Positions 10,783 to 58,816 of a stretch of DNA of 64,000 nucleotides are shown piece after piece. The notes under the pieces were generated by a model. It was not told where the DNA came from. It did not search any database and saw only the letters and a list, made by a program, of their open reading frames with translations. The stretch spans positions 7,132-71,131 of the forward strand of contig JAHWJU010000002.1 of the NCBI GenBank assembly GCA_019348255.1, given 5' to 3'. The first letter of the stretch is position 1. Each line of letters opens with the position of its first letter. The DNA is from Actinomycetota bacterium. Its GTDB lineage: Bacteria; Actinomycetota; Acidimicrobiia; Acidimicrobiales; CADCTF01. Position numbers and translations under genes: made by a program.

Positions 10783-11724
10783 GTGCGTCTCCGCGCCGCC
10801 ACCCGCGGCAGCGCCCTGGCCCGTTGGCAGACCGACCACGTGGCCGCGCTCCTCCGCCAGGCGCACGGCCCCGACCTCGACATCGAGGTCGTCGTCGTGC
10901 AGACGGAGGGAGACCGGCGCCACGACGTCCCCATCGAGGCACTGGGGGGTCGGGGGGTCTTCGTCAAGGAGGTGCAGGCGGCGGTGCTCGAAGGCCACGC
11001 CGACATCGCCGTCCACTCCGCCAAGGACCTGCCGGCGGCACCGTCCCTGCAGCCCCCGGGGCTGGTGCTCGCGTGCGTGCCCGAGCGGGGCGACCCCCGG
11101 GACGCGCTGGTCACCGCGGCCGGACCGCCCGCGGCCGCAACCACCTCCGGGCGCAGCATCATCGAATCCCTGCCGGTGGCCGCGCTGGTGGCCACCGGCT
11201 CGGTCCGCCGGCGGGCCCAGCTCGCCAACCTTCGGCCCGACCTGTGCTTCAGCGGCCTCCGGGGCAACATCGAGACCCGCCTCGATCGCGCCCGCGGCTA
11301 CGACGCGGTGGTGATCGCCGCCGCCGCCCTCGACCGGCTGGGCCGGTTCGACGCGCCCGCCACCGTCGTAGACCCCCCGCTGCTGTTGCCCCAGGTCGGC
11401 CAGGGAGCGCTAGCCGTCGAGTGCCGCGCCGACGACGCCTGGGTGCAGGTGGCACTGAGGGCGGTGGAGCACGCCGCCAGTCGAGCGGCGGTCGACGCCG
11501 AGCGGGCCTTCCTCGCCCACCTGGGCGGTGGCTGCGACCTTCCCGTGGGTGCGCTGGCGAGCGTCGACCCCGCCGGCCAGATCCACCTCGAGGGGCTCCT
11601 CGCCAGCTACGACGGCCGCATCGTGCTGCGCCGGTCGCTCGCCGGCCCTGATCCCGCCGCCCTCGGCGCCGAATTGGCCACGGAACTTCTCGACCGGGCC
11701 GGCGGCCGCGCCCTGCTGGCCTGA
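10783..11724 (+). CDS. hemC: Hydroxymethylbilane synthase (porphobilinogen deaminase)
   Basis: RAATRGSALARWQT...GGRGVFVKEVQ...DIAVHSAKDLP...GNIETRL...GGGCDLPVGA motifs. Confidence 0.9.
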   Translation: MRLRAATRGSALARWQTDHVAALLRQAHGPDLDIEVVVVQTEGDRRHDVPIEALGGRGVFVKEVQAAVLEGHADIAVHSAKDLPAAPSLQPPGLVLACVPERGDPRDALVTAAGPPAAATTSGRSIIESLPVAALVATGSVRRRAQLANLRPDLCFSGLRGNIETRLDRARGYDAVVIAAAALDRLGRFDAPATVVDPPLLLPQVGQGALAVECRADDAWVQVALRAVEHAASRAAVDAERAFLAHLGGGCDLPVGALASVDPAGQIHLEGLLASYDGRIVLRRSLAGPDPAALGAELATELLDRAGGRALLA

Positions 11725-26632: not shown

Positions 26633-27960
26633 GGAGCCGGACGGCTTCAGCCGAGACGTCCGAGGGCCGCCAGGAGATGGCGCCGCGGGGGGCGACCGAG
26701 CGGGCCGAGTTGCTGCGCGAGGAGGGTGCGGTCCTCCGCCTTCCCGAGGGCCCGACGTTGTCGCCACAGGACGTGGCCATCGAAGTGGCCGGCGAGGGCG
26801 AGACCATGATCATCAACATGGGCCCGCAGCACCCGAGCACCCATGGCGTCTTGCGCGTGATGATGGAGCTCGACGGGGAGACGGTCGTCCGCTCCAAGCC
26901 GGTGATCGGCTACCTCCACACGGGCATGGAGAAGACGGCGGAGGACCTCATGTACATCCAGGGGTCCACCAACGTGACCCGGATGGACTACCTCGCCAAC
27001 TTCTTCAACGAGAACGTCTACTCGATGGCGGTGGAGCAACTGCTCGGCATCGAGGTGCCGCCCCGGGCGACGTGGATCCGGATGCTGCTCTGCGAGCTCA
27101 ACCGCATGTCCTCGCACCTGTTGTTCATGGCCACCAACGGCATGGACGTCGGGGCCCTCTCGATGATGATCTACGGCTGGCGGGAGCGCGAGCTCGTGCT
27201 GGCATTCTTCGAGAAGGTGACGGGGTTGCGGATGAACCACAACTTCATCCGTCCCGGTGGGGTGGCGGCCGACCTGCCGGCAGGTTGGCGGGACGACGTC
27301 AAGCAGATCTGCAACCTCATCGAGCCGAGGCTCGACGAGTACGACGAGCTGCTGACCGGCCAGCCGATCTTCCAGGAGCGGACCCAGGGGGTCGGGGTGC
27401 TGACTCCGGAACAGGCCGTGGCGCTGTCGGCCACGGGGCCCATCCTGCGCTCGACCGGGGTCGAGTGGGACCTGCGGCGGGACATGCCTTACCAGTACTA
27501 CGACCAGCTCGAATTCGACGTGATCGTGGGTCAGTACGGCGACGCCTTCGATCGCTACGCCATCCGCCTCAACGAGATCCGCGAGTCGATCAAGCTCGTC
27601 CGCCAGATCATCGAGCTCGTGCCCGGCGGTGACTACCGGACGCAGGACAAGAAGGTGACGCCGCCGCCCAGGGCCCGCATCGACGAGTCGATGGAAGCAT
27701 TGATCCACCACTTCAAGCTCTTCACGGAGGGGTTCCGGGTGCCCGCGGGAGAGGTGTACGTGCCCATCGAGTCCCCCCGCGGGGAGCTGGGCTGCTACCT
27801 GGTCTCGGACGGTTCGGCCAAGCCCTTCCGCCTCCACATCCGGGCACCGTCCTTCGCCAACCTCCAGACGCTGCCCGTTATGTTGCGCGGCGGCCTCATC
27901 GCCGACGCAGTCGCCATCATCTCCTCCATCGACCCCGTCATGGGAGACGTCGACCGATGA
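26629..27960 (+). CDS. nuoD: NADH-quinone oxidoreductase subunit D
   Basis: NMGPQHPSTHGVLR, IGYLHTGMEK and C-terminal DPVMGDVDR; ATGA overlap with nuoC. Confidence 0.9.
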   Translation: MRSRTASAETSEGRQEMAPRGATERAELLREEGAVLRLPEGPTLSPQDVAIEVAGEGETMIINMGPQHPSTHGVLRVMMELDGETVVRSKPVIGYLHTGMEKTAEDLMYIQGSTNVTRMDYLANFFNENVYSMAVEQLLGIEVPPRATWIRMLLCELNRMSSHLLFMATNGMDVGALSMMIYGWRERELVLAFFEKVTGLRMNHNFIRPGGVAADLPAGWRDDVKQICNLIEPRLDEYDELLTGQPIFQERTQGVGVLTPEQAVALSATGPILRSTGVEWDLRRDMPYQYYDQLEFDVIVGQYGDAFDRYAIRLNEIRESIKLVRQIIELVPGGDYRTQDKKVTPPPRARIDESMEALIHHFKLFTEGFRVPAGEVYVPIESPRGELGCYLVSDGSAKPFRLHIRAPSFANLQTLPVMLRGGLIADAVAIISSIDPVMGDVDR

Positions 27961-28078
27961 GGCCTTCGTCCTCACTCGCTTCGCTCCGTTCGGACGAGTT
28001 CGGTCGTGCCGGCCTTCGGCCGGCGCTGTCTTTCGCTCCGTCGACCGGCGGAGCCGGATCGACGGAGGGGGGCTGCTG
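27961..28078 (+). repeat. Structured intercistronic repeat, copy A (nuoD-nuoE junction)
   Basis: Shares a ~75-nt core with 48259-48382 and 56050-56197. Hairpins at 28008-28024 and 28036-28067. Bridged by a 40-codon ORF (27957-28079) docked ATGA/TGATG to nuoD and nuoE. Confidence 0.75.
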
Positions 28079-28822
28079 ATGGCGGGGCTGAGCAAGGAGA
28101 ACCTGGAGCGCGCTCGCCAGACGATCGCGCTGTATCCGCAGGCCCGCTCCGCGATGTTGCCGCTGTTGCACATCGTGCAGGAGCAGGAGGGCTACCTGAC
28201 GGAGGAGGGGATGGCGCAGGTGGCCGACTTGCTCGACCTGAGCCCGGCTGAGGTCTATGGGACGGCCACCTTCTACGACATGCTCTTCACCCACCCGGTG
28301 GGGACGTACCTGCTCTCCGTCTGCACCAACATCGCCTGCCTTCTGAACGGCGGCTACGAGCTGCTCGAGCACGCCGAGAAGCGCCTGGGGGTGAAGGCCG
28401 GCGGCACCACCGCCGATGGCCGCTTCACCCTGGAGGAGGTGGAGTGCATCGGCCTGTGCGGCAACGCCCCCTGCCTCACCGCCAACTGGCGGTTCTTCGG
28501 TGACCTTACCGCCGACAGCTTCGACACCCTCGTGGACGACCTCGGCGCCGGCCGCCTGAGCGAGACGGTGCCACGCCACGGCACTCTCTGCCGCGTTCGC
28601 CGCTCCGTGGGCCTGACGGCCGCCGGCCCCAAGGGTGAGCAGGCGAAGCCCCCGCCGGAAGAGGCGGCCGCTCCCGCCTCCGAGGCACCCCAGTCCGTCG
28701 CGCCCGGCACCCACGACCAGCCGCCGAGCCGCGAGGGCGCGGAGAAGGCCGCCAAGCAGGCCTCGGAGGTTCCGAAGACGGGCGACACCGCGTCCGACCA
28801 GGGGAGCGGGAGGCGAAAGTAG
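28079..28822 (+). CDS. nuoE: NADH-quinone oxidoreductase subunit E
   Basis: SAMLPLLHIVQEQEGY, GTATFYDMLF, VCTNIAC and ECIGLCGNAPC ([2Fe-2S] ligands); Pro/Ala/Glu-rich C-terminal tail. Confidence 0.9.
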   Translation: MAGLSKENLERARQTIALYPQARSAMLPLLHIVQEQEGYLTEEGMAQVADLLDLSPAEVYGTATFYDMLFTHPVGTYLLSVCTNIACLLNGGYELLEHAEKRLGVKAGGTTADGRFTLEEVECIGLCGNAPCLTANWRFFGDLTADSFDTLVDDLGAGRLSETVPRHGTLCRVRRSVGLTAAGPKGEQAKPPPEEAAAPASEAPQSVAPGTHDQPPSREGAEKAAKQASEVPKTGDTASDQGSGRRK

Positions 28823-47089: not shown

Positions 47090-48258
47090 CCATCACCCAG
47101 CATCAACAGCAGGCCTACATCGCCGGCCAGGCCGCCGAGGCCCGCCTCCGCTTCGAGCTCGAGACAGAGGGAATGACCCTCAACATCGGGCCTCAGCATC
47201 CCGCCACGCACGGGACGCTCCGCATCGTGGTCCGCCTCGACGGCGAGCAGGTCGTGTGGGCCGATCCCGTCTGCGGCTACATGCACCGCGGCTACGAGAA
47301 GCTGTGCGAGGTCCGCAAGTACCAGCAGGTGACCACCCTCATCAACCGGATCGACTGGTTGGGGCACTTCGCCAACGAGGTGCCCTTCATCCTGGCCGTC
47401 GAACAGCTGTACGACGTGGAGGCGCCTCCTCGGGCGCAGTGGATCCGCACGATCTTCTTCGAGATGGCCCGTATGGCCAACCTCGGCTTGTTCCTGGGGG
47501 ACATGGGAGTTCAGCTGGGGGCCATCACTCCGGTGTTCTTCGCCTTCCGCGACCGCGAGCACGTGCTCAACCTCATGGAGGCTGCCACCGGGGGCCGCTT
47601 CCATCCCAACTACGACCGGGTCGGGGGTCTCAAGGAGGATCTGCCCAAGGGTTGGGTGGACGAGTGCAAAGAGGTGATGAAGCGCCAGCGGGAGTTCTGC
47701 GACGAGATGGAGGAGCTCCTGGTCGGAAACGAGATCTTCCAGACCCGCACCCGCGGCATCGGGGTGATCCCCCAACAGATAGGTCTCGACTACGGATTGT
47801 CAGGCGCCAACATCCGCGCCAGCGGCGTCGACTGGGACCTCCGGCGGGACCGGCCCACGCCCTTGGCCTGGAAAGAGGCCGACTGGAAGGTGTGGACCCA
47901 CCCCGACGGCGACTCCTTCGCCCGCTACTGGGTGCGGCTGCAGGAAGTTCGGGAGTCGACCAAGATCGTCGACCAGCTGCTGGAAGGCCTCCCGTCTGGG
48001 CCGGTGATGGCCAAGATGCCGGCCCGCCTCCGGGTGCCCAAGGGAGAGGCCTGGGTCAACACCGAGAACCCGTTGGGGGAGATGGGCTACTACGTCGTCA
48101 GCGACGGTGGCCCCAGCGGGCCCTTCCGCTGCAAGATCCGCTCCGCCAGCTTCAACAACATCTCCATCGTGCCGTGGCTGCTCCGCGGCGTCTACGTTCC
48201 CGACGTCATCACCATTCTCGCCAGCCTCTACTTCATCCTCGGCGACATCGATAGATGA
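47086..48258 (+). CDS. nuoD2: NADH-quinone oxidoreductase subunit D, second copy
   Basis: NIGPQHPATHGTLR, CGYMHRGYEK and C-terminal YFILGDIDR; GTGA overlap with nuoC2. Confidence 0.9.
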   Translation: MTITQHQQQAYIAGQAAEARLRFELETEGMTLNIGPQHPATHGTLRIVVRLDGEQVVWADPVCGYMHRGYEKLCEVRKYQQVTTLINRIDWLGHFANEVPFILAVEQLYDVEAPPRAQWIRTIFFEMARMANLGLFLGDMGVQLGAITPVFFAFRDREHVLNLMEAATGGRFHPNYDRVGGLKEDLPKGWVDECKEVMKRQREFCDEMEELLVGNEIFQTRTRGIGVIPQQIGLDYGLSGANIRASGVDWDLRRDRPTPLAWKEADWKVWTHPDGDSFARYWVRLQEVRESTKIVDQLLEGLPSGPVMAKMPARLRVPKGEAWVNTENPLGEMGYYVVSDGGPSGPFRCKIRSASFNNISIVPWLLRGVYVPDVITILASLYFILGDIDR

Positions 48259-48382
48259 GTTCGCCGTCACTCGCTCGCTGCGCTCGCTCCGTTCCGGCGA
48301 GTTCGTTGTGCCGCCCTTCGGGCGGCGCTGTCTCTGGCTCGATCGACCGGCAGAGCCGGATCGATCGAGGGGAGGGGGGTTG
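48259..48382 (+). repeat. Structured intercistronic repeat, copy B (nuoD2-nuoH2 junction)
   Basis: Same core as 27961-28078. Hairpins at 48310-48326 and 48338-48369. Bridged by a 42-codon ORF (48255-48383) docked ATGA/TGATG. Confidence 0.75.
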
Positions 48383-49402
48383 ATGCTGGCGCTTTCTTAT
48401 CCGGTGGAGACGGCCATCAAGATGGGGGCGGTGCTGGCCGTCATCCCGGTGGGGGCACTGATCCTCGTCTACGTCTTCCTGTTCAAGATGATGAGCCACA
48501 TGCAGAGCCGGCTGGGTCCGATGGAGGCGGGCTTCCACGGGACGCTGCAGCCGGTGGTGGAGGGTGTGAAGTTCCTCCAGAAGGAGGACCTCATCCCGAA
48601 CGGAGCGGACCGGCGGATCTTCGCACTGGCCCCGCTCGTGGTCATCATCGCCACGTTCCTCATCTACGCGGTGATCCCGGCCGGGCCCGACCTCGTCATC
48701 TCCAACCTCGACGTGGGCGTCTTCTATGCCCTGGCCGTTGGCTCGCTGTCCGTACTCGGCGTCCTCATGGCCGGTTGGGCGTCGGCCAACAAGTACTCGC
48801 TGCTCGGCTCGCTACGGGCTGCGGGGCAGCTGATCGCCTACGAGCTCCCGCTGGTGCTGGCCGTCGTGGGGGTTGTGATCCAGGCCGGGACGATGAGCCT
48901 GTCCGGCATCGTCGAGGCCCAGGCCGAAGGAGAGATCTTCGGCTTCGGCGGCATCGGCAACCCTTACATCCTCACTCAGTTCATCGGCTTCGCGCTGTTC
49001 GTGGTCTCCTCGCAGGCCGAGCTGACCCAGGCGCCCTTCGACATGCCGATCGCCGAGTCCGAGCTCGTCGCCGGCTACATGACCGAGTACAGCGGGTTCC
49101 GGTTCCTGTTCTTCTTCATCGGTGAGTTCGCCACTGCCTTCGCCCTTTCGGCCATCGCGGCCACCCTCTTCCTCGGCGGCTGGTACTTCCCCGGCCTCGG
49201 GACCGACGGCGCCCTCGCCAACCTGGCGGGACCCATCGTGCTCATGGGCAAGATCATGCTGATGGCCTTTTTCATCTTCTGGATGCGCTTCACCTACCCG
49301 CGGCTGCGGGAGGACCAGTTGCAGACCTTCGCCTGGAAGTGGCTGATCCCCATCTCGCTGGTCAACATCGCCGTCACGGGCGTGCTGAAGGTGGCCTTCT
49401 GA
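48383..49402 (+). CDS. nuoH2: NADH-quinone oxidoreductase subunit H, second copy
   Basis: [26 protein letters not shown] and [29 protein letters not shown] 48383 (TTG 48380 is also possible). Confidence 0.85.
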
Positions 49403-54528: not shown

Positions 54529-56049
54529 GTGTACGGAGCGATGCTCGCTGCGGCGCAGGCCGCGACGGATTTCGTGACGCCGAAGCTCGACTACGCCGCC
54601 CTGGCCCCCGAGATGATCCTCACCGGTGTCATCGTCGTCGTCCTGCTGCTCGACCTGTTCCTGGACGAGACGCAGAAGTACGTCATCCCGAGCATTGCCG
54701 GCTTCGGGATCCTGACAGCCGCGTTCCCACTCGTGTTCCTGGCCGTGCAGGGCGACGACGTGCGTTCCATGGTGGGCGGCGCCTACGTCTCCGACGACTT
54801 CGCCCTGGTGTTCAAGGCCCTCTTCCTCGGGACCGGCTACGTCGTGCTCCTCATGTCGAACCGGTACATCGACGAGGGTGACTATTACAAGGGCGAGTAC
54901 TACGTGATGCTGCTGTCGTCGCTGCTCGGGATGGTGGTCATGTCCTCCTCGCGCGACCTCATCTCGATCTTCGTGGCACTGGAGCTGCTGTCGATCCCGG
55001 CCTACCTGCTGGCCGGCTGGCGCAAGCGTGACCTCAAGAGCAACGAGGCCTCGCTCAAGTACTACCTGCTCGGCGTGCTGTCCAGCGGGGTGATGCTCTA
55101 CGGCATGTCGCTGATCTTCGGTGCCGCCGGTACCACCGTGCTGGAGGACATCAGCGCCCAGCTCGTATCGGTGCCCCAGCTCGACAAGGTGATTGCGATC
55201 GGCATCTTCTTCGTGGTCGTCGGCTTCGCCTTCAAGGTCTCCGCTGTTCCCTTCCACTTCTGGGCTCCCGACACCTACGAGGGGGCCCCCACCCCGGTGA
55301 CCGCCTTCCTGTCGGTGGCCTCCAAGGCCGCCGGCTTCGTCGCACTGCTGCAGTTGGTGTTCATCGCCTTCCTCTCCCAGGGCGACACGTGGGCACCGCT
55401 TTTCTGGGTGCTGGCCGCGCTCACGATGACCGTGGGAAACCTCGTCGCACTGCGCCAGACCAACATCGTGCGGATGCTCGCCTACTCGTCGGTCGCGCAG
55501 GCTGGCTACATCCTCGTGCCGTTCGCGGTGGCGGGTGACGAGCTGCGAGCGGTGCAGTCGGCCCAGACTGCGGCGATCGTCTATCTGCTCATCTACTCGG
55601 CCATGAACCTGGGGGCCTTCGCGATCGTCCTGGCCGTCGCCCGCAAGACCCGCTCCGGGGAGATATCGAGCTTCGGCGGGCTCTTCCAGTACGCGCCAGG
55701 CCTGACGGTGGTCATGACCGTCTTCCTGGCATCCCTGGCCGGGGTGCCGCCCGCCGGAGGATGGTTCGCCAAGTTCGCCGTCTTCCGCTCCGTACTCGAT
55801 GCCGGCACCGGCTGGGCCGTCGCCCTGGGCGTCATCGCCGCCGTCAACTCCGTGGTGGCCGCCTTCTACTACTTCAACGTGGCCCGCGAGATGTGGATCA
55901 ACCCCGTCCCCGACGAGGACCGCACCCCCATCCGGGTGCCGGCCGCGCTGACCACCGCCCTCGGCCTCACCGTCGCCGTCGTACTGGTGATCGGAGTCTT
56001 CCCGGGCCTCTTCGCCGACCTGGGCAACGCGGCATCGCTTGGGCGATGA
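54529..56049 (+). CDS. nuoN2: NADH-quinone oxidoreductase subunit N, second copy
   Basis: FVALELLSIPAYLL and FKVSAVPFHFWAPDTYEGAPTPVTAFLS. Confidence 0.9.
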   Translation: MYGAMLAAAQAATDFVTPKLDYAALAPEMILTGVIVVVLLLDLFLDETQKYVIPSIAGFGILTAAFPLVFLAVQGDDVRSMVGGAYVSDDFALVFKALFLGTGYVVLLMSNRYIDEGDYYKGEYYVMLLSSLLGMVVMSSSRDLISIFVALELLSIPAYLLAGWRKRDLKSNEASLKYYLLGVLSSGVMLYGMSLIFGAAGTTVLEDISAQLVSVPQLDKVIAIGIFFVVVGFAFKVSAVPFHFWAPDTYEGAPTPVTAFLSVASKAAGFVALLQLVFIAFLSQGDTWAPLFWVLAALTMTVGNLVALRQTNIVRMLAYSSVAQAGYILVPFAVAGDELRAVQSAQTAAIVYLLIYSAMNLGAFAIVLAVARKTRSGEISSFGGLFQYAPGLTVVMTVFLASLAGVPPAGGWFAKFAVFRSVLDAGTGWAVALGVIAAVNSVVAAFYYFNVAREMWINPVPDEDRTPIRVPAALTTALGLTVAVVLVIGVFPGLFADLGNAASLGR

Positions 56050-56197
56050 TCGCCTTCGCAACCGTAGGTTGCTCGGCGAGCTCGTTGTGCCGGCCTTCGG
56101 CCGGCGCTGTCTCTGGCTCAGCCGACCGGCGGAGCCGGATCGGCTGAGGAGCCTGGCGGACGGAGGGGCCGGATCGGCTGAGGGGTAAAGCATCGCC
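56050..56197 (+). repeat. Structured intercistronic repeat, copy C (nuoN2-midA junction) with duplicated 3' arm
   Basis: Core hairpins at 56089-56105 and 56117-56148. The 3'-arm sequence CCGGATCGGCTGAGG recurs at 56135-56149 and 56169-56183. A 33-codon ORF (56046-56147) starts with an ATGA overlap on the nuoN2 stop. Confidence 0.75.
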
Positions 56198-57349
56198 GTG
56201 GGGGCTATGGGTGCCATGGGGGTGGTGCAGGGGCGGGTTCGGCGGTTGGGGCCGATCTCATTCGAGGACTACCTCGACATCGCCCTCTACGAGCCCGAAG
56301 CAGGCTTCTACAGCACGGGCGGCGGCGCCGGCCGCCACGGCGATTTCCTGACCAGCCCAGAGCTGGGGCCGCTTTTCGGGGCGGTGATCGGTCGGGCGCT
56401 CGATGCCTGGTGGTCGGAGCTCGGAGAGCCCGATCCGTTCGTCGTCGTGGAGGCGGCCGCCGGCGAGGGCAGTCTCGCCGCAGCCGTGCTGGCCGCCGCG
56501 CCTCGCTGCGCCCCGGCTCTGCGCTACCTGCTCGTGGAGCGCTCGGAACGCATGCGCCAGCGCCAACCGGCCCGGGTTGCGCTCGAGCCCAGCTCGGTGG
56601 TGCTGGGCCCGCGGGGGGACGAGGGCGAGGACGACGAGGACTCCTCGACAGCGGCCGGCGACGGACCACGGCTGGCCTCGCTGGACGATCTGCCTGCCGC
56701 TCCCTTCAGCGGCGTCGTGCTGGCCAACGAGTTGCTCGACAACCTTCCCTTCACCCTGCTCGAGCGCAGCACCGGCGGCTGGGACGAGGTGCGGGTCGGG
56801 GAATCGACCGGAAGCGGAGGCCTCGTCGAGTTCCTGGCGCCGGCGCCTACGACGCTGGCTTCTCTGGCGGCAGAACTGGCCCCCGACGCCGATCCCGGCG
56901 TCCGCATCCCCGTGCAGCGACGGGCGGCGGAGTGGCTGCGGAAGGTACTGAGGCTGCTTCGGGGGGGCCGGGTGGTGGTCGTCGACTACGTCGCCACCAC
57001 GGCCGAGCTCGCCAGCCGACCGCAGGGGGAGTGGCTTAGGACGTACCGCAGCGGCGGACCCGGGGGGCATCCCCTGGACACCCCTGGGGCCCAGGACATC
57101 ACCTGCGAGGTCTGTGTCGACCAACTGTCGCGGGTGCGGGTGCCGACCTCCAACCGGCCGCAGGCGGAGTTCCTAGTGGCGCATGGGCTGGCGCAGTTGG
57201 TCGACGAGGCGAAGGATGCGTGGCTGCGGGGGGCTGCTGGCGGCGGGCTCGAGGCGCTGCGGGCCAGGAGCCGGATCGACGAAGCCGCCGCCCTCACCGA
57301 TCCCTCCGGGCTCGGTGCCTTCCGGGTGCTGGAGTGGGTGACCGGCTGA
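56198..57349 (+). CDS. MidA/NDUFAF7-family class I SAM-dependent methyltransferase (DUF185 type)
   Basis: ISFEDYLDIALYEPEAGFYS...GRHGDFLTSPELGPLFGAVIG closely parallels the family N-terminal block (GDF.TSPE....FGE..G). It is followed by VVEAAAGEGSLA (SAM motif I) and VLANELLDNLPF. The start could also be ATG 56207 or 56216. Confidence 0.8.
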   Translation: MGAMGAMGVVQGRVRRLGPISFEDYLDIALYEPEAGFYSTGGGAGRHGDFLTSPELGPLFGAVIGRALDAWWSELGEPDPFVVVEAAAGEGSLAAAVLAAAPRCAPALRYLLVERSERMRQRQPARVALEPSSVVLGPRGDEGEDDEDSSTAAGDGPRLASLDDLPAAPFSGVVLANELLDNLPFTLLERSTGGWDEVRVGESTGSGGLVEFLAPAPTTLASLAAELAPDADPGVRIPVQRRAAEWLRKVLRLLRGGRVVVVDYVATTAELASRPQGEWLRTYRSGGPGGHPLDTPGAQDITCEVCVDQLSRVRVPTSNRPQAEFLVAHGLAQLVDEAKDAWLRGAAGGGLEALRARSRIDEAAALTDPSGLGAFRVLEWVTG

Positions 57350-57376: not shown

Positions 57377-58816
57377 GTGCGTCGACGCCTCCCCCTGCTG
57401 CTGGCCCTCGTATTGACGCTGCCTTCGGCGCTCATTGCCACCGTCGCCACCCCCGCGGGCGCGGCCGGCGACGAAACCGTCATGGCCTTCGGTGACGCCG
57501 CATTTGCCGGCTCCACCACCGGTCTGGCGCTTTCCTCGCCGCTGGTGGCGATGGCCGCCAAGCCCACCGGCACCGGGTACTGGCTGGTGGGGCGCGACGG
57601 GGGCATCTTCGCCTTCGGCGACGCCCCCTATGTCGGCTCCACCGGGGACATCCGTCTCAACCAGCCGATCGTGGGCATGACGGCAACCCGTTCCGGCAAC
57701 GGTTACTGGATGGCCGCCGCCGACGGCGGCATCTTCGCCTTCGGCGACGCCCGCTTCCTCGGCAGCATGGGCGGTGTCCGCCTCGCTCGGCCGGTCGTGG
57801 CGATGGCGGCCACCGCCTCCGGCAACGGTTACTGGATGGTGGCCGCCGACGGCGGCATGTTCGCCTTCGGCGACGCCGGGTTCCACGGGTCTGCCGCCGG
57901 TCAGCGTCTGGGCAAGCCCGTCGTGGCCATGGCGTCGACTCCCGACGGTGGCGGGTACTGGCTGGTGGGCGGCGACGGCGCCGTCTACTCGTTCGGCAAC
58001 GCACCCCACCTCGGCAACGCACCCGGCAACGTCGAGGTCGCCGGCATCGCCGCATCCCCATCGGGCAACGGCTACTGGCTGCTAGACCGCGCCGGCGGTG
58101 TCTTCACCTTCGGTGACGCCGTCTTCGCCGGTTCCGGCTCAGGAGCGGTCGCACCCGGCAAGGTCGCCCTCGCCCTGGTGCCGTCGCGCTCGGGCAACGG
58201 GTACTGGATCACGACCGGTGAGATCCCCTTGGTGGCGGGGGCCACCGGCTCGGCGGTGACCCGCCTGCAGAGCCGGCTCCACGAGCTCGGCTACTGGGTG
58301 CCGGTCGACGGCCGGTTCACGGCCACCACCACCCAGGCCCTCTATGCCCTCCAGAAGGCGGCCGGCATCTCCCGCACCGGCCAGTTCGACGCCGCCACGG
58401 CGCGAGCCCTGGACGAGCGGGTGCTGCCCACACCCCGCACCACCAGCGGCTACGTGGCCGAGATCGACAAGAGCCGCCAGCTGCTGATGCTCGTGAGCAA
58501 CGGACGCATCGTCCGCGTCTTCAACACCTCCACCGGCAACGGCGCCCGCTACCGCTCAGGCTCCGGAACCGCCATCGCCTACACCCCTGAGGGATCGTTC
58601 TCGGTGGTGCGCCAGATCAACGGGCTACGGATCTCGGAGCTGGGGCAGCTCTTCCGGCCCAAGTACTTCACCGGCGGCTACGCCATCCACGGCTCACCCA
58701 GCATCCCGCCCTATCCGGCCTCCCACGGCTGTGTTCGCGTCTCGAACTCCGCCATCAACTTCCTCTGGGACAGCGGCGAGCTGCCCATCGGGACGCCGGT
58801 GCTCGTCTACTCCTGA
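57377..58816 (+). CDS. Secreted L,D-transpeptidase (YkuD) with PG-binding domain and N-terminal six-repeat propeller-like domain
   Basis: Signal peptide; six ~40-aa repeats; PG_binding_1-like GSAVTRLQSRLHELGYWVPVDGRFTATTTQALYALQKAAGISRTGQ; YkuD catalytic motif YAIHGSPSIPPYPASHGCVRV. Confidence 0.85.
   Translation: MRRRLPLLLALVLTLPSALIATVATPAGAAGDETVMAFGDAAFAGSTTGLALSSPLVAMAAKPTGTGYWLVGRDGGIFAFGDAPYVGSTGDIRLNQPIVGMTATRSGNGYWMAAADGGIFAFGDARFLGSMGGVRLARPVVAMAATASGNGYWMVAADGGMFAFGDAGFHGSAAGQRLGKPVVAMASTPDGGGYWLVGGDGAVYSFGNAPHLGNAPGNVEVAGIAASPSGNGYWLLDRAGGVFTFGDAVFAGSGSGAVAPGKVALALVPSRSGNGYWITTGEIPLVAGATGSAVTRLQSRLHELGYWVPVDGRFTATTTQALYALQKAAGISRTGQFDAATARALDERVLPTPRTTSGYVAEIDKSRQLLMLVSNGRIVRVFNTSTGNGARYRSGSGTAIAYTPEGSFSVVRQINGLRISELGQLFRPKYFTGGYAIHGSPSIPPYPASHGCVRVSNSAINFLWDSGELPIGTPVLVYS
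57479..58216 (+). repeat. Six tandem ~40-42-aa coding repeats (consensus ..F.FGDA.F.GS.....L..P.V.MA.T.SGNGYW.V..DGG)
   Basis: Visible in the translation. Repeats 2 and 3 also share near-identical DNA strings 126 bp apart (GGCATCTTCGCCTTCGGCGACGCCC at about 57602 and 57728; TCCGGCAACGGTTACTGGATGG at about 57693 and 57819). Confidence 0.8.

What the first reader, a model, noticed from the sequence alone, without database searches (positions are those of the whole stretch)
27961..28078. Three-copy structured intercistronic element confined to the nuo operons, with compensatory base-pair changes between copies
Almost every junction in the two nuo operons is an overlap or under 15 nt. The exceptions are three 118-148 nt gaps (27961-28078, 48259-48382, 56050-56197), and these share one core sequence: CGAG(T/C)TCG..TGTGCCG(G/C)CCTTCGG(C/G)CGGCGCTGTCT....GCTC-NNN-CGACCGGC(G/A)GAGCCGGATCG-NNN-GAGG. 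Hairpin 1 is a 7-bp stem: copy A 28008-28024 GCCGGCC/GGCCGGC, copy B 48310-48326 GCCGCCC/GGGCGGC (a G-C pair flipped to C-G), copy C 56089-56105 as in A. Hairpin 2 is a 9-bp outer stem plus a CCGG/CCGG inner stem, a 5-nt loop and one bulged A. Its outer stems are A 28036-28067 CTCCGTCGA/TCGACGGAG, B 48338-48369 CTCGATCGA/TCGATCGAG and C 56117-56148 CTCAGCCGA/TCGGCTGAG. Stem positions 4-6 read CGT, GAT and AGC in A, B and C, so no two copies match, and the partner strand compensates perfectly each time. That pattern argues for selection on a folded RNA (or cruciform) rather than on primary sequence. I know of no described element with this sequence, and it is not a classical terminator because there is no U-tract. 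Possible roles are a processing or stability determinant setting module stoichiometry, a translational-coupling device, or a binding site for a regulator.
Basis: seen in the sequence. Interest (0 to 1): 0.85.

Follow-up and report, generated by a model that had tools for sequence, protein, structure and literature searches.

The report
Hairpin repeat inserted in nuo operons
The three structured spacers in the two complex I operons are real, but they are copies of an apparently undescribed hairpin-rich repeat family that sits just after the stop codons of many unrelated genes in Acidimicrobiia, so they are not a control element specific to nuo.

Summary
Three same-strand copies lie at 27961-28078, 48259-48382 and 56050-56197. 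They share two hairpins, and the outer stem of hairpin 2 differs between copies at three base pairs that are fully compensated. The host is an uncultured Acidimicrobiales bacterium. The copies are versions of a modular repeat family of about 145 nt with four hairpins, and they lack the family's fourth hairpin and C-rich tail. I found about 38 further copies in about 35 other Acidimicrobiia genomes and metagenome contigs, following unrelated genes such as ribosomal protein L6, FtsH, QcrA and acyl-CoA dehydrogenases. Family copies start 0-8 nt after the stop codon of a co-oriented gene and never lie antisense between tandem genes. Their stems covary strongly: 93% of cells are paired against 73% in shuffles. 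G·U outnumbers A·C in three of the four helices. The nuo copies are lineage-specific insertions. The same junctions abut or overlap in relatives with 74-83% protein identity, and one relative carries a different repeat at other nuo2 junctions. There is no Rfam match and no literature match. The most likely reading is a REP/BIME-like mosaic repeat co-transcribed with the operon, whose hairpins have only side effects in cis. Its function and its means of spread remain unknown.

The parts
27961..28078 (+). Copy A: the whole spacer between nuoD (stop TGA at 27958-27960) and nuoE (ATG at 28079).
   Evidence: Covariance model R1 hit at 27959-28104, 78 bits.
27965..27998 (+). Copy A 5' module (variant 'type II'). 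The outer stem TTCGTCC/GGACGAG encloses CACTCGCTTCGCTCCGTT instead of the usual CAACC-AGA-GGTTG apex. The stem foot begins 5 nt after the nuoD stop codon.
   Evidence: The orthologous copies L002 and L136 have the canonical apex.
28008..28024 (+). Copy A hairpin 1: GCCGGCC-TTC-GGCCGGC.
   Evidence: This is the only one of the three copies whose tail (TGTCTTTC) passes a loose terminator scan.
28036..28067 (+). Copy A hairpin 2: outer stem CTCCGTCGA/TCGACGGAG, inner stem CCGGC/GCCGG, bulged A. The invariant core lies at 28042-28061.
28064..28072 (+). GGAGGGGGG run, the likely Shine-Dalgarno sequence of nuoE. Its first 4 nt lie inside the 3' arm of hairpin 2.
   Evidence: Read. Its function as a ribosome-binding site is inferred.
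48259..48382 (+). Copy B: the whole spacer between nuoD2 (stop at 48256-48258) and nuoH2 (ATG at 48383).
   Evidence: R1 hit at 48265-48405, 86.8 bits.
48260..48301 (+). Copy B 5' module (type II): TTCGCCG...CACTCGCTCGCTGCGCTCGCTCCGTTC...CGGCGAG. It begins 1 nt after the stop codon.
   Evidence: The same module occurs alone at this junction in relative L141. Orthologue L132 has the canonical apex.
48310..48326 (+). Copy B hairpin 1: GCCGCCC-TTC-GGGCGGC, with the fifth pair flipped relative to copies A and C.
48338..48369 (+). Copy B hairpin 2: outer stem CTCGATCGA/TCGATCGAG around the invariant core at 48344-48363.
48368..48379 (+). AGGGGAGGGGGG run, the likely Shine-Dalgarno sequence of nuoH2.
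   Evidence: Read. Inferred.
56050..56197 (+). Copy C: the whole spacer between nuoN2 (stop at 56047-56049) and a PF02636 (NDUFAF7/MidA-like) methyltransferase gene (GTG at 56198).
   Evidence: R1 hit at 56044-56181, 97 bits.
56050..56079 (+). Copy C canonical hairpin 0: TCGCC..GCAACC-GTA-GGTTGC..GGCGA. It starts directly after the stop codon.
56089..56105 (+). Copy C hairpin 1: GCCGGCC-TTC-GGCCGGC.
56117..56148 (+). Copy C hairpin 2: outer stem CTCAGCCGA/TCGGCTGAG around the invariant core at 56123-56142.
56168..56183 (+). Second copy of the hairpin-2 3' arm, GCCGGATCGGCTGAGG, which also occurs at 56134-56149. It is a local duplication that could pair alternatively with the 5' arm. It is followed by the purine run GGGG before the GTG start.
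   Evidence: Read. Not analysed further.

Best explanation
Each of the three long nuo spacers holds one copy of a modular, hairpin-rich interspersed repeat family found in Acidimicrobiia.

Family architecture. The full element is about 145 nt and reads, 5' to 3':
- Hairpin 0.
- The linker CGAGCTCG.
- Hairpin 1.
- A second linker.
- Hairpin 2, which has a hypervariable outer stem and an invariant core with a bulged A.
- Hairpin 3, a G-run/C-run stem, followed by a C-rich tail.
The window copies keep hairpins 0, 1 and 2 and lack hairpin 3 and the tail.

Shown:
- The family is dispersed among many genomes and follows many unrelated genes.
- Copies lie in the sense orientation and begin 0-8 nt after the stop codon of the upstream gene.
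- Stems covary while loops and linkers drift.
- The nuo copies are lineage-specific insertions at junctions that abut or overlap in related genomes.

Inferred:
- The copies are transcribed as part of the nuo mRNAs and fold into consecutive stable RNA hairpins.
- These hairpins replace the ancestral stop/start coupling (nuoD to nuoE, nuoD2 to nuoH2, nuoN2 to the methyltransferase gene) with independent initiation at a G-rich Shine-Dalgarno sequence directly after hairpin 2.
- They place a stem within the footprint of the terminating ribosome.
- They can act as barriers to 3' exonucleases, as shown for REP elements in E. coli.
- The invariant bulged-A hairpin is probably the recognition site of a protein that spreads or uses the element.

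Nothing indicates a role specific to complex I.
For: Host and family:
- NuoE hits identify the host as an Acidimicrobiales MAG lineage.
- A genome-collection scan with the hairpin-2 core returned many Acidimicrobiia contigs sharing the same four-hairpin architecture.
- Model R1 finds about 38 full copies in about 35 other genomes or contigs. It finds only three in the window.
- Full-length copies fold into four consecutive hairpins with z-scores of -5.5 to -7.2.

Structure under selection:
- 93.4% of stem cells pair against 73.0% in shuffles and at most 47% with slid partners. 31 of 38 pairs show double changes.
- G·U versus A·C counts are 15:1, 7:1 and 11:1 in hairpins 0, 1 and 3.

Context:
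- A co-oriented upstream ORF stops within -36 to +6 nt of the element start in 23 of 27 non-window copies.
- 18 of 19 such ORFs are genuine, unrelated genes.
- The downstream neighbour is a convergent gene (about 13 cases) or a co-directional gene (about 12). No copy lies antisense between tandem genes.

Insertion history:
- At nuoD|nuoE the element is present at 99, 87 and 85% NuoE identity. It is absent at 77 and 74%.
- At nuoD2|nuoH2 it is present in L132. Only the 5' module is present in L141. It is absent in L142 and L143.
- Contigs L136 and L137 begin inside the element, and several other copies sit at contig ends. This is expected for a multi-copy repeat in short-read assemblies.
- Orthologous copies differ only in unpaired positions: A against L002 shows 4 changes in 17 unpaired nt and 0 in 46 paired nt.
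Against: - The rest of the host genome could not be read. Dispersal within this particular genome is therefore inferred from relatives and from assembly breaks.
- Outside the anchoring hits, only 2 extra copies turned up in about 300 kb of flanking DNA. Copy numbers may be tens per genome, not hundreds, and three copies in 64 kb, all within nuo, is more than that density predicts.
- Two of the three copies follow the two nuoD paralogues, which is unlikely by chance alone.
- No transposase, terminal inverted repeats or clear target duplication were found, so the mobility mechanism is unknown.
- In hairpin 2 the G·U:A·C ratio is 4:9, which does not favour the sense strand.
- The alignment behind the covariation counts was fitted to the model.
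Confidence: 0.6

Rival explanations
1. The element is a nuo-dedicated RNA. It would be a processing, stability or translational-coupling determinant placed at module boundaries to set the stoichiometry of complex I modules, or a binding site for a regulator of respiration.
For: - Two copies follow the two nuoD paralogues, at the boundary between the NuoA-D block and the rest of each operon. The third precedes a complex I-related methyltransferase gene.
- The copies are retained with intact stems in relatives at 85% identity or more.
- There are three copies in 64 kb and none outside nuo.
Against: - The same element follows ribosomal protein L6, FtsH, QcrA, acyl-CoA dehydrogenase, Fpg and other genes in other genomes.
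- Relatives with the same two operons and the same methyltransferase synteny have abutting or overlapping junctions.
- L142 carries a different repeat at nuoH2|nuoI2 and nuoJ2|nuoK2.
- The 5' module has been swapped within the window lineage.
- Complex I subunits are present in equal numbers, so no differential expression is needed (established knowledge).
Confidence: 0.1
2. The structure matters at the DNA level. The hairpins, above all the invariant bulged-A hairpin 2, would be single-stranded-DNA recognition sites for a transposase or recombinase of the HUH/Y1 (RAYT, IS200/IS605-like) kind or another kind. Stem conservation would then reflect mobility or template-switch repair of palindromes, and RNA folding would be incidental.
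For: - The family is mosaic and modular. Some copies have only hairpins 0+2 or 0+1, and the 5' modules are interchangeable.
- The nuo copies are lineage-specific insertions.
- Assemblies break at the element.
- The same 20-nt hairpin-2 core sits in differently built repeats of Burkholderiales and Anaeromyxobacter, which suggests a transferable recognition system.
- A conserved extrahelical base is typical of hairpins bound by Y1 transposases (my own knowledge, not tested here).
Against: - Copies are strictly in the sense orientation between tandem genes and abut the stop codon.
- G·U exceeds A·C in three helices.
- There is no GTAG or CGTC tag and there are no terminal inverted repeats.
- No transposase gene was seen, although ORFs in the loci were not screened systematically.
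- A template-switch process would tend to erase the bulge, yet the bulge is present in every copy.
Confidence: 0.2
3. The element is a partial intrinsic terminator or attenuator inside the operons. Hairpin 1 followed by UGUCUUUC would stop a fraction of transcripts after nuoD.
For: Hairpin 1 of copy A passes a loose terminator scan, with a 9-bp stem and 5 T in the next 8 nt.
Against: - Copies B and C fail the scan.
- The number of terminator-like sites equals that in shuffles (6 against 5.1).
- Most family members have no T-rich tail after hairpin 1.
- All essential downstream subunits lie beyond the site.
Confidence: 0.05

Closest known systems
REP / BIME elements of Escherichia coli and other proteobacteria
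   Same: - Both are GC-rich imperfect palindromes dispersed in intergenic and intercistronic positions and co-transcribed with operons.
- Many REPs lie within 15 nt of the upstream stop codon, where they stall terminating ribosomes, and they stabilise upstream mRNA segments (as summarised in PMC12306157).
- Both combine with other motifs into mosaics.
   Different: - There is no GTAG or CGTC tag (the tag is defined in PMC3733652).
- The unit is four different hairpins in a fixed order, about 145 nt, not a single palindrome of 20-40 nt.
- Copies lie in the sense orientation only, not in alternating arrays.
- Copy number appears lower.
- No RAYT gene was identified.
BOX elements of Streptococcus pneumoniae and RIME elements of rhizobia (modular or mosaic intergenic repeats)
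   Same: Both are built from a few modules that occur in different combinations, fold into stable structures when transcribed, and sit between genes (PMC3049150; PMC3184786).
   Different: There is no sequence similarity. The host phylum differs. The strict abutment to stop codons and the cross-phylum invariant bulged hairpin are not described for these families, as far as I know.
MIRU (mycobacterial interspersed repetitive units)
   Same: Both are actinobacterial, lie in intercistronic gaps of operons, are transcribed within polycistronic mRNA, and show filled and empty sites between relatives (PMC3184786).
   Different: MIRUs are units of 40-100 bp, often in tandem, with short ORFs that overlap the flanking genes. 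The element here is not tandem and has no conserved ORF. Its conserved features are RNA-type stems.
MITEs such as Correia, ERIC and RUP
   Same: They are similar in size (100-200 nt), non-coding, intergenic, fold stably, and are present or absent between relatives.
   Different: There are no terminal inverted repeats above the shuffled control and no clear target-site duplication. The element folds into four separate hairpins, not one long one.

Membership tests
Acidimicrobiia four-hairpin repeat family (defined here) | Hairpin 1 (GCCGNCC-NNN-GGNCGGC) followed after about 12-20 nt by hairpin 2, which has the core CGACCGGC-NNA-GCCGG-A-TCG. Scored with covariance model R1. | tested here: met
   Window copies score 78, 86.8 and 97 bits. 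The copies from other genomes treated as family members score 33.6-134 bits, and background in the window is at most 15 bits. The window copies were part of the seed, but they also match the non-window consensus by eye.
Acidimicrobiia four-hairpin repeat family (defined here) | Sense orientation, starting within a few nucleotides of the stop codon of the upstream gene. | tested here: met
   The stem foot starts 5, 1 and 0 nt after the stop codons of nuoD, nuoD2 and nuoN2. 23 of 27 other copies behave the same way.
Acidimicrobiia four-hairpin repeat family (defined here) | Hairpin 3 (GGGGGC...GCCCCC) and a C-rich tail. | tested here: not met
   The 27-nt hairpin-3 consensus has no match in the window with up to 3 mismatches. 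The window copies and their orthologues L002 and L132 are versions without the 3' module.
REP / BIME | A GTAG or CGTC tetranucleotide tag at one end of the palindrome (PMC3733652). | tested here: not met
   GTAG occurs in 5 of 40 copies at scattered positions. CGTC has no fixed alignment position.
REP / BIME | High copy number, more than 100 per genome (PMC2817692). | not testable with these tools
   No complete genome of the host or of a close relative could be read. The indirect evidence is assembly breaks at the element and only 2 extra copies in about 300 kb of flanks.
REP / BIME | Clusters of copies in alternating orientation. | tested here: not met
   Only two face-to-face pairs were found (L112 and L057). 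All other loci hold a single copy.
REP / BIME | Association with a RAYT (Y1 transposase) gene. | not tested
   ORFs of the fetched loci were not screened for PF01797.
MITE | Terminal inverted repeats (PMC3184786). | tested here: not met
   The longest match between the 5' end and the reverse complement of the 3' end is 3-7 nt in 25 full-length copies. The shuffled control gives 4-8 nt.
MITE | Target-site duplication flanking the insertion. | tested here: inconclusive
   L002 has CCGATGA on both sides. The window and L136 share only GATG, and that sequence is also the stop/start context. The empty sites read TAG-ATG or TAATG.
MIRU | Units of 40-100 bp, often tandem, with short ORFs overlapping the flanking genes. 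| tested here: not met
   Each site holds a single unit, the family varies by insertions and deletions, and no frame is conserved.
Intrinsic (Rho-independent) terminator | A GC-rich hairpin directly followed by a U-tract. | tested here: not met
   Only hairpin 1 of copy A passes a loose scan, and site counts equal those in shuffles. Hairpin 2 is followed by a G-run.
Any Rfam 15 family | Covariance-model score at or above the gathering threshold. | tested here: not met
   No hits in the window or in 18 related loci. E-value searches of copy A and of a full-length copy gave only chance microRNA-type matches far below threshold.

The most novel reading that the evidence does not exclude
The invariant bulged-A hairpin (CGACCGGC-NNA-GCCGG-A-TCG) is the docking site of a conserved protein. 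It appears in several differently built repeats of Acidimicrobiia, and also in repeats of Burkholderiales and Anaeromyxobacter. In those repeats the copies I inspected by eye likewise begin right after stop codons. Together, these elements would form a previously unrecognised class of sense-oriented modules that abut stop codons in 3' UTRs or intercistronic spacers. They would be either a post-transcriptional regulon acting on mRNA ends and translation termination, or a mobile element that targets the ends of genes in a strand-specific way.
Probability: 0.2. Interest if true: 0.75.

Novelty: new variant of a known kind. Interest (0 to 1): 0.5.

Why it matters
For the nuo operons the result is sobering. 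The spacers are most likely colonisation by a repeat, not a designed control point, so they should not be annotated as complex I regulators.

For the repeat family the result opens something. Acidimicrobiia are abundant in soil and water and are mostly uncultured, and I found no description of their interspersed repeats. This family has four features that make it a tractable case for asking how such repeats spread and what they do to mRNA:
- Its stems are kept by selection.
- It obeys a strict positional rule: sense strand, directly after a stop codon.
- Its modules are interchangeable.
- It has a 20-nt hairpin shared across phyla.

It also explains contig breaks in metagenome assemblies of this group.

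Tried and rejected
- Rfam. Gathering-threshold searches of the window and of 18 loci, and E-value searches of two copies, gave nothing meaningful.
- Literature. Full-text searches for the core sequence strings and for repeat-element terms combined with Acidimicrobiia found no description.
- Guide or target idea. I tested whether the hypervariable hairpin-2 arms match the end of the upstream gene. Copy A shares a 9-mer with the nuoD end, but across 34 copies the similarity is no greater than in permutations (p about 0.15). Rejected.
- Target motif. The 12 nt upstream of the copies share nothing but the stop codon.
- Terminal inverted repeats and GTAG/CGTC tags. Absent.
- Target-site duplication. 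Inconclusive.
- Integron attC analogy (directly after the ORF, same orientation, extrahelical bases). Considered and rejected. The flanking genes are core housekeeping genes, the element ends carry no RYYYAAC/GTTRRRY sites, and the element forms four hairpins, not one.
- SECIS-like readthrough signal after UGA. Rejected. TAG and TAA stop codons also precede copies, and the proteins end at their normal C-termini.
- Small coding ORF in the spacer. No conserved frame.
- Further copies or lone modules in the window. None were found: hairpin 0, hairpin 3 and the type II module.
- Plasmid collection BLAST. No match.
- Viral-contig scan with the hairpin-2 core. Only 5 hits, not followed up.
- Look-up of the window's own NuoE in the assembly index. 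Not on record, so the host genome itself could not be explored.

Full report
**Observation**

- Hairpin 1 is a 7-bp stem with a TTC loop. Copy B carries a G-C to C-G flip in it.
- Hairpin 2 has a 9-bp outer stem, a 5-bp inner stem, one bulged A and a small loop.
- Positions 4-6 of the outer stem read CGT, GAT and AGC in copies A, B and C, and the partner arm compensates perfectly each time.
- The hairpin-1 pattern and the 20-nt hairpin-2 core each occur exactly three times in the window, all on the + strand, where shuffles expect essentially none.
- Pfam confirms the flanking genes as nuoD|nuoE, nuoD2|nuoH2 and nuoN2|a PF02636 (NDUFAF7/MidA-like) methyltransferase.
- Judged from ORF ends and from gene calls in a 99% relative, the other nuo junctions are overlaps or about ten nucleotides or less.

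**What the element belongs to**

NuoE homologues place the window in an uncultured Acidimicrobiales lineage. I scanned one genome per species with the hairpin-2 core.

Some hits are chance matches inside genes of Streptomyces and other organisms. About 35 hits come from different Acidimicrobiia MAGs and show one common architecture around the core:
- A 12-bp hairpin 0 with apex CAACC-AGA-GGTTG.
- The linker CGAGCTCG.
- Hairpin 1.
- A linker of about 15 nt.
- Hairpin 2 with a hypervariable outer stem.
- Hairpin 3, a G-run/C-run stem.
- A C-rich tail.

A metagenome scan with the hairpin-1 pattern added two things. One is an orthologue of copy B. The other is a subfamily in which the inner stem of hairpin 2 has changed from CCGG/CCGG to CCGA/TCGG.

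Full-length copies fold into four consecutive hairpins, with z-scores of -5.5 to -7.2. The window copies, judged against their GC-rich background, reach only -1.6 to -2.7.

I built a covariance model (R1) from 13 copies with a hand-checked structure.
- With filters off, it finds only the three known copies in the window.
- It finds about 38 full copies in the fetched loci.
- The window copies and their orthologues lack hairpin 3 and the tail.
- Copies A and B carry a variant 5' module in place of the hairpin-0 apex. The orthologous copies in relatives have the canonical apex.
- One relative has only that variant module at the nuoD2|nuoH2 junction.
- Other family members consist of hairpins 0+2 only or hairpins 0+1 only.
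The family is therefore modular and mosaic.

**Structure and strand**

I counted pairs on the model-based alignment of 41 copies.
- 93.4% of stem cells form standard pairs, against 73.0% in column shuffles and at most 47% when partners are slid.
- 31 of 38 pairs show changes on both sides.
The alignment was fitted to the model, so these numbers lean towards the structure. The MAFFT-only alignments show the same compensations.

G·U pairs outnumber A·C mismatches 15:1, 7:1 and 11:1 in hairpins 0, 1 and 3, but not in hairpin 2, where the count is 4:9. This favours folding of the sense strand, with that one caveat.

Between orthologous copies the substitutions avoid the stems.
- Copy A against L002 differs at 4 of 17 unpaired positions and 0 of 46 paired positions in the hairpin 1 to hairpin 2 stretch.
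- Copy B against L132 differs only at two loop positions.
These counts are read.

**Context**

- In 23 of 27 non-window copies, a long co-oriented ORF ends within -36 to +6 nt of the element start. The foot of hairpin 0 usually begins 0-8 nt after the stop codon.
- Pfam shows 18 of 19 of these ORFs to be genuine, unrelated genes: acyl-CoA dehydrogenases, LigT, two Rieske/QcrA proteins, aldehyde dehydrogenase, two FlK-type thioesterases, AdoHcy hydrolase, PAPS reductase, a VWA protein, FtsH, phosphoglucomutase, a transglutaminase, a binding protein, signal peptidase, ribosomal protein L6 and Fpg.
- Downstream lies either the end of a convergent gene, 8-58 nt beyond the element (about 13 cases), or the start of a co-directional gene (about 12 cases).
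- I found no copy lying antisense between tandem genes. A cruder tally over all core hits points the same way.
- The two loci with a second copy (L112 and L057) hold face-to-face pairs between convergent genes.
- No sequence motif other than the stop codon precedes the copies.

**History of the nuo copies**

- At nuoD|nuoE the element is present in relatives whose NuoE is 99, 87 and 85% identical. It is absent where identity is 77 and 74%, and there the genes abut, overlap or are separated by an unrelated 49-nt spacer.
- At nuoD2|nuoH2 it is present in the window and in L132. It is reduced to the variant 5' module in L141. It is absent in L142 and L143, although both keep the whole nuo2-methyltransferase-transpeptidase synteny.
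- L142 carries two copies of a different repeat at nuoH2|nuoI2 and nuoJ2|nuoK2.
- Two contigs of the 85% relative begin inside the element, and several other copies lie at contig ends. Short-read assemblers do this at multi-copy repeats.

**Interpretation**

The simplest account is that the three spacers are lineage-specific insertions of a dispersed mosaic repeat into permissive intercistronic sites. This is the behaviour known from REP/BIME, BOX, RIME and MIRU elements (PMC3184786, PMC3049150).

Because the copies lie inside operons in the sense orientation, they must be transcribed, and their hairpins are very stable. By analogy with E. coli REPs, three effects are expected:
- A stem that starts fewer than 16 nt after the stop codon can stall the terminating ribosome.
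- A stable 3' structure can protect the upstream mRNA segment (as summarised in PMC12306157).
- Translation of the downstream gene must now start on its own at the G-rich run directly after hairpin 2, which in copy A overlaps the stem by four nucleotides.
These effects are inferred and were not shown here.

**Points that remain open**

- Two of the three copies follow the two nuoD paralogues, and all three are in nuo. This is more than the low background density predicts (2 extra copies in about 300 kb of flanks). I could not read the rest of this genome to test it.
- The strict sense orientation and the abutment to stop codons are not explained by neutrality alone.
- The means of spread is unknown. 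I found no terminal inverted repeats, no GTAG or CGTC tag, no clear target duplication, and no match between the variable arms and the flank.
- The hairpin-2 core recurs in other Acidimicrobiia repeats, and in Burkholderiales and Anaeromyxobacter repeats that by eye also begin right after stop codons. This hints at a shared protein partner.

**Comparison with known families**

The element matches no Rfam family, and neither the sequence strings nor the topic were found in the paper library.
- It fails the defining tag of REPs.
- It fails the terminal repeats of MITEs.
- It fails the tandem ORF-bearing units of MIRUs.
- It fails the U-tract of intrinsic terminators.
It resembles mosaic intergenic repeats in how it behaves, but it is not a member of any named family. 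I therefore file it as a new variant of a known kind.

**Verdict**

Interest is moderate: low for nuo biology, and higher for the repeat family and its cross-phylum hairpin.

Noticed in passing
window 56198-57349; also L142 18025-18996 and L143 11469-12626: A PF02636 (NDUFAF7/MidA-type) methyltransferase gene directly follows nuoN2. It is followed in turn by a YkuD/PG_binding transpeptidase gene. This synteny is conserved in two relatives, which also carry an alcohol dehydrogenase gene next. In mitochondria NDUFAF7 methylates the NuoD homologue, so a bacterial homologue tied to the 11-subunit nuo2 operon may be a complex I maturation factor.
   Followed up: partly
L009, L010, L019, L026, L033, L036, L040, L041, L068, L082, L084, L096, L108, L118, L120 (Burkholderiales); L030, L086, L102 (Anaeromyxobacter and others): The same 20-nt bulged-A hairpin core sits in a differently built repeat: C-run, hairpin, C-run/G-run, then the core with a variable outer stem. 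By eye these repeats also start right after stop codons. Two of these loci were scanned against Rfam with no hit.
   Followed up: partly
L142 11033-11133 and 12151-12263: A relative with no element at nuoD2|nuoH2 has two copies of another intercistronic repeat, sharing CTGCTCGCTGGCGCTCCCGACGC, at nuoH2|nuoI2 and nuoJ2|nuoK2.
   Followed up: no
L141 2503-2578; window 27965-27998 and 48260-48301; L022, L057, L083, L106, L122: The CGCT-rich 'type II' module (CACTCGYTCGCTSCGCTCGC...CCGTTCGG) replaces the apex of hairpin 0 in some copies. In one relative it occurs alone at the nuoD2|nuoH2 junction, so it behaves as an independent module.
   Followed up: partly
L048, L053, L087, L090 (Microthrixaceae); L008, L060, L103; L063, L064, L094: Further Acidimicrobiia repeat types share only the hairpin-2 core and have other 5' modules. 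They too lie directly after stop codons. L094 and L064 show tandem or closely repeated copies.
   Followed up: no
window 57461-58003: Four tandem copies of a 126-nt unit (68-71% identity) lie inside the gene for the PG_binding/YkuD L,D-transpeptidase. This points to a repeated protein segment of 42 residues.
   Followed up: no
L002 3931-4102: In the 87% relative the nuoD|nuoE element is followed by about 170 extra nucleotides rich in GGGGCCCC-type palindromes (for example GGGAGGGGCCCCCGAAGGGGGAGGGGCCC). This may be yet another inserted repeat.
   Followed up: no
L136 1-94 and L137 1-20: Two short-read contigs carrying the same NuoE begin inside the element, and several other copies lie within about 160 nt of contig ends. 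The repeat appears to fragment metagenome assemblies of this group.
   Followed up: partly
window 11330-11351: An isolated hairpin that resembles the hairpin-2 core (CGACCGGCTGGGCCGGTTCG, 3 mismatches, 14.9 bits with R1). It has none of the other modules and is probably a chance match.
   Followed up: no
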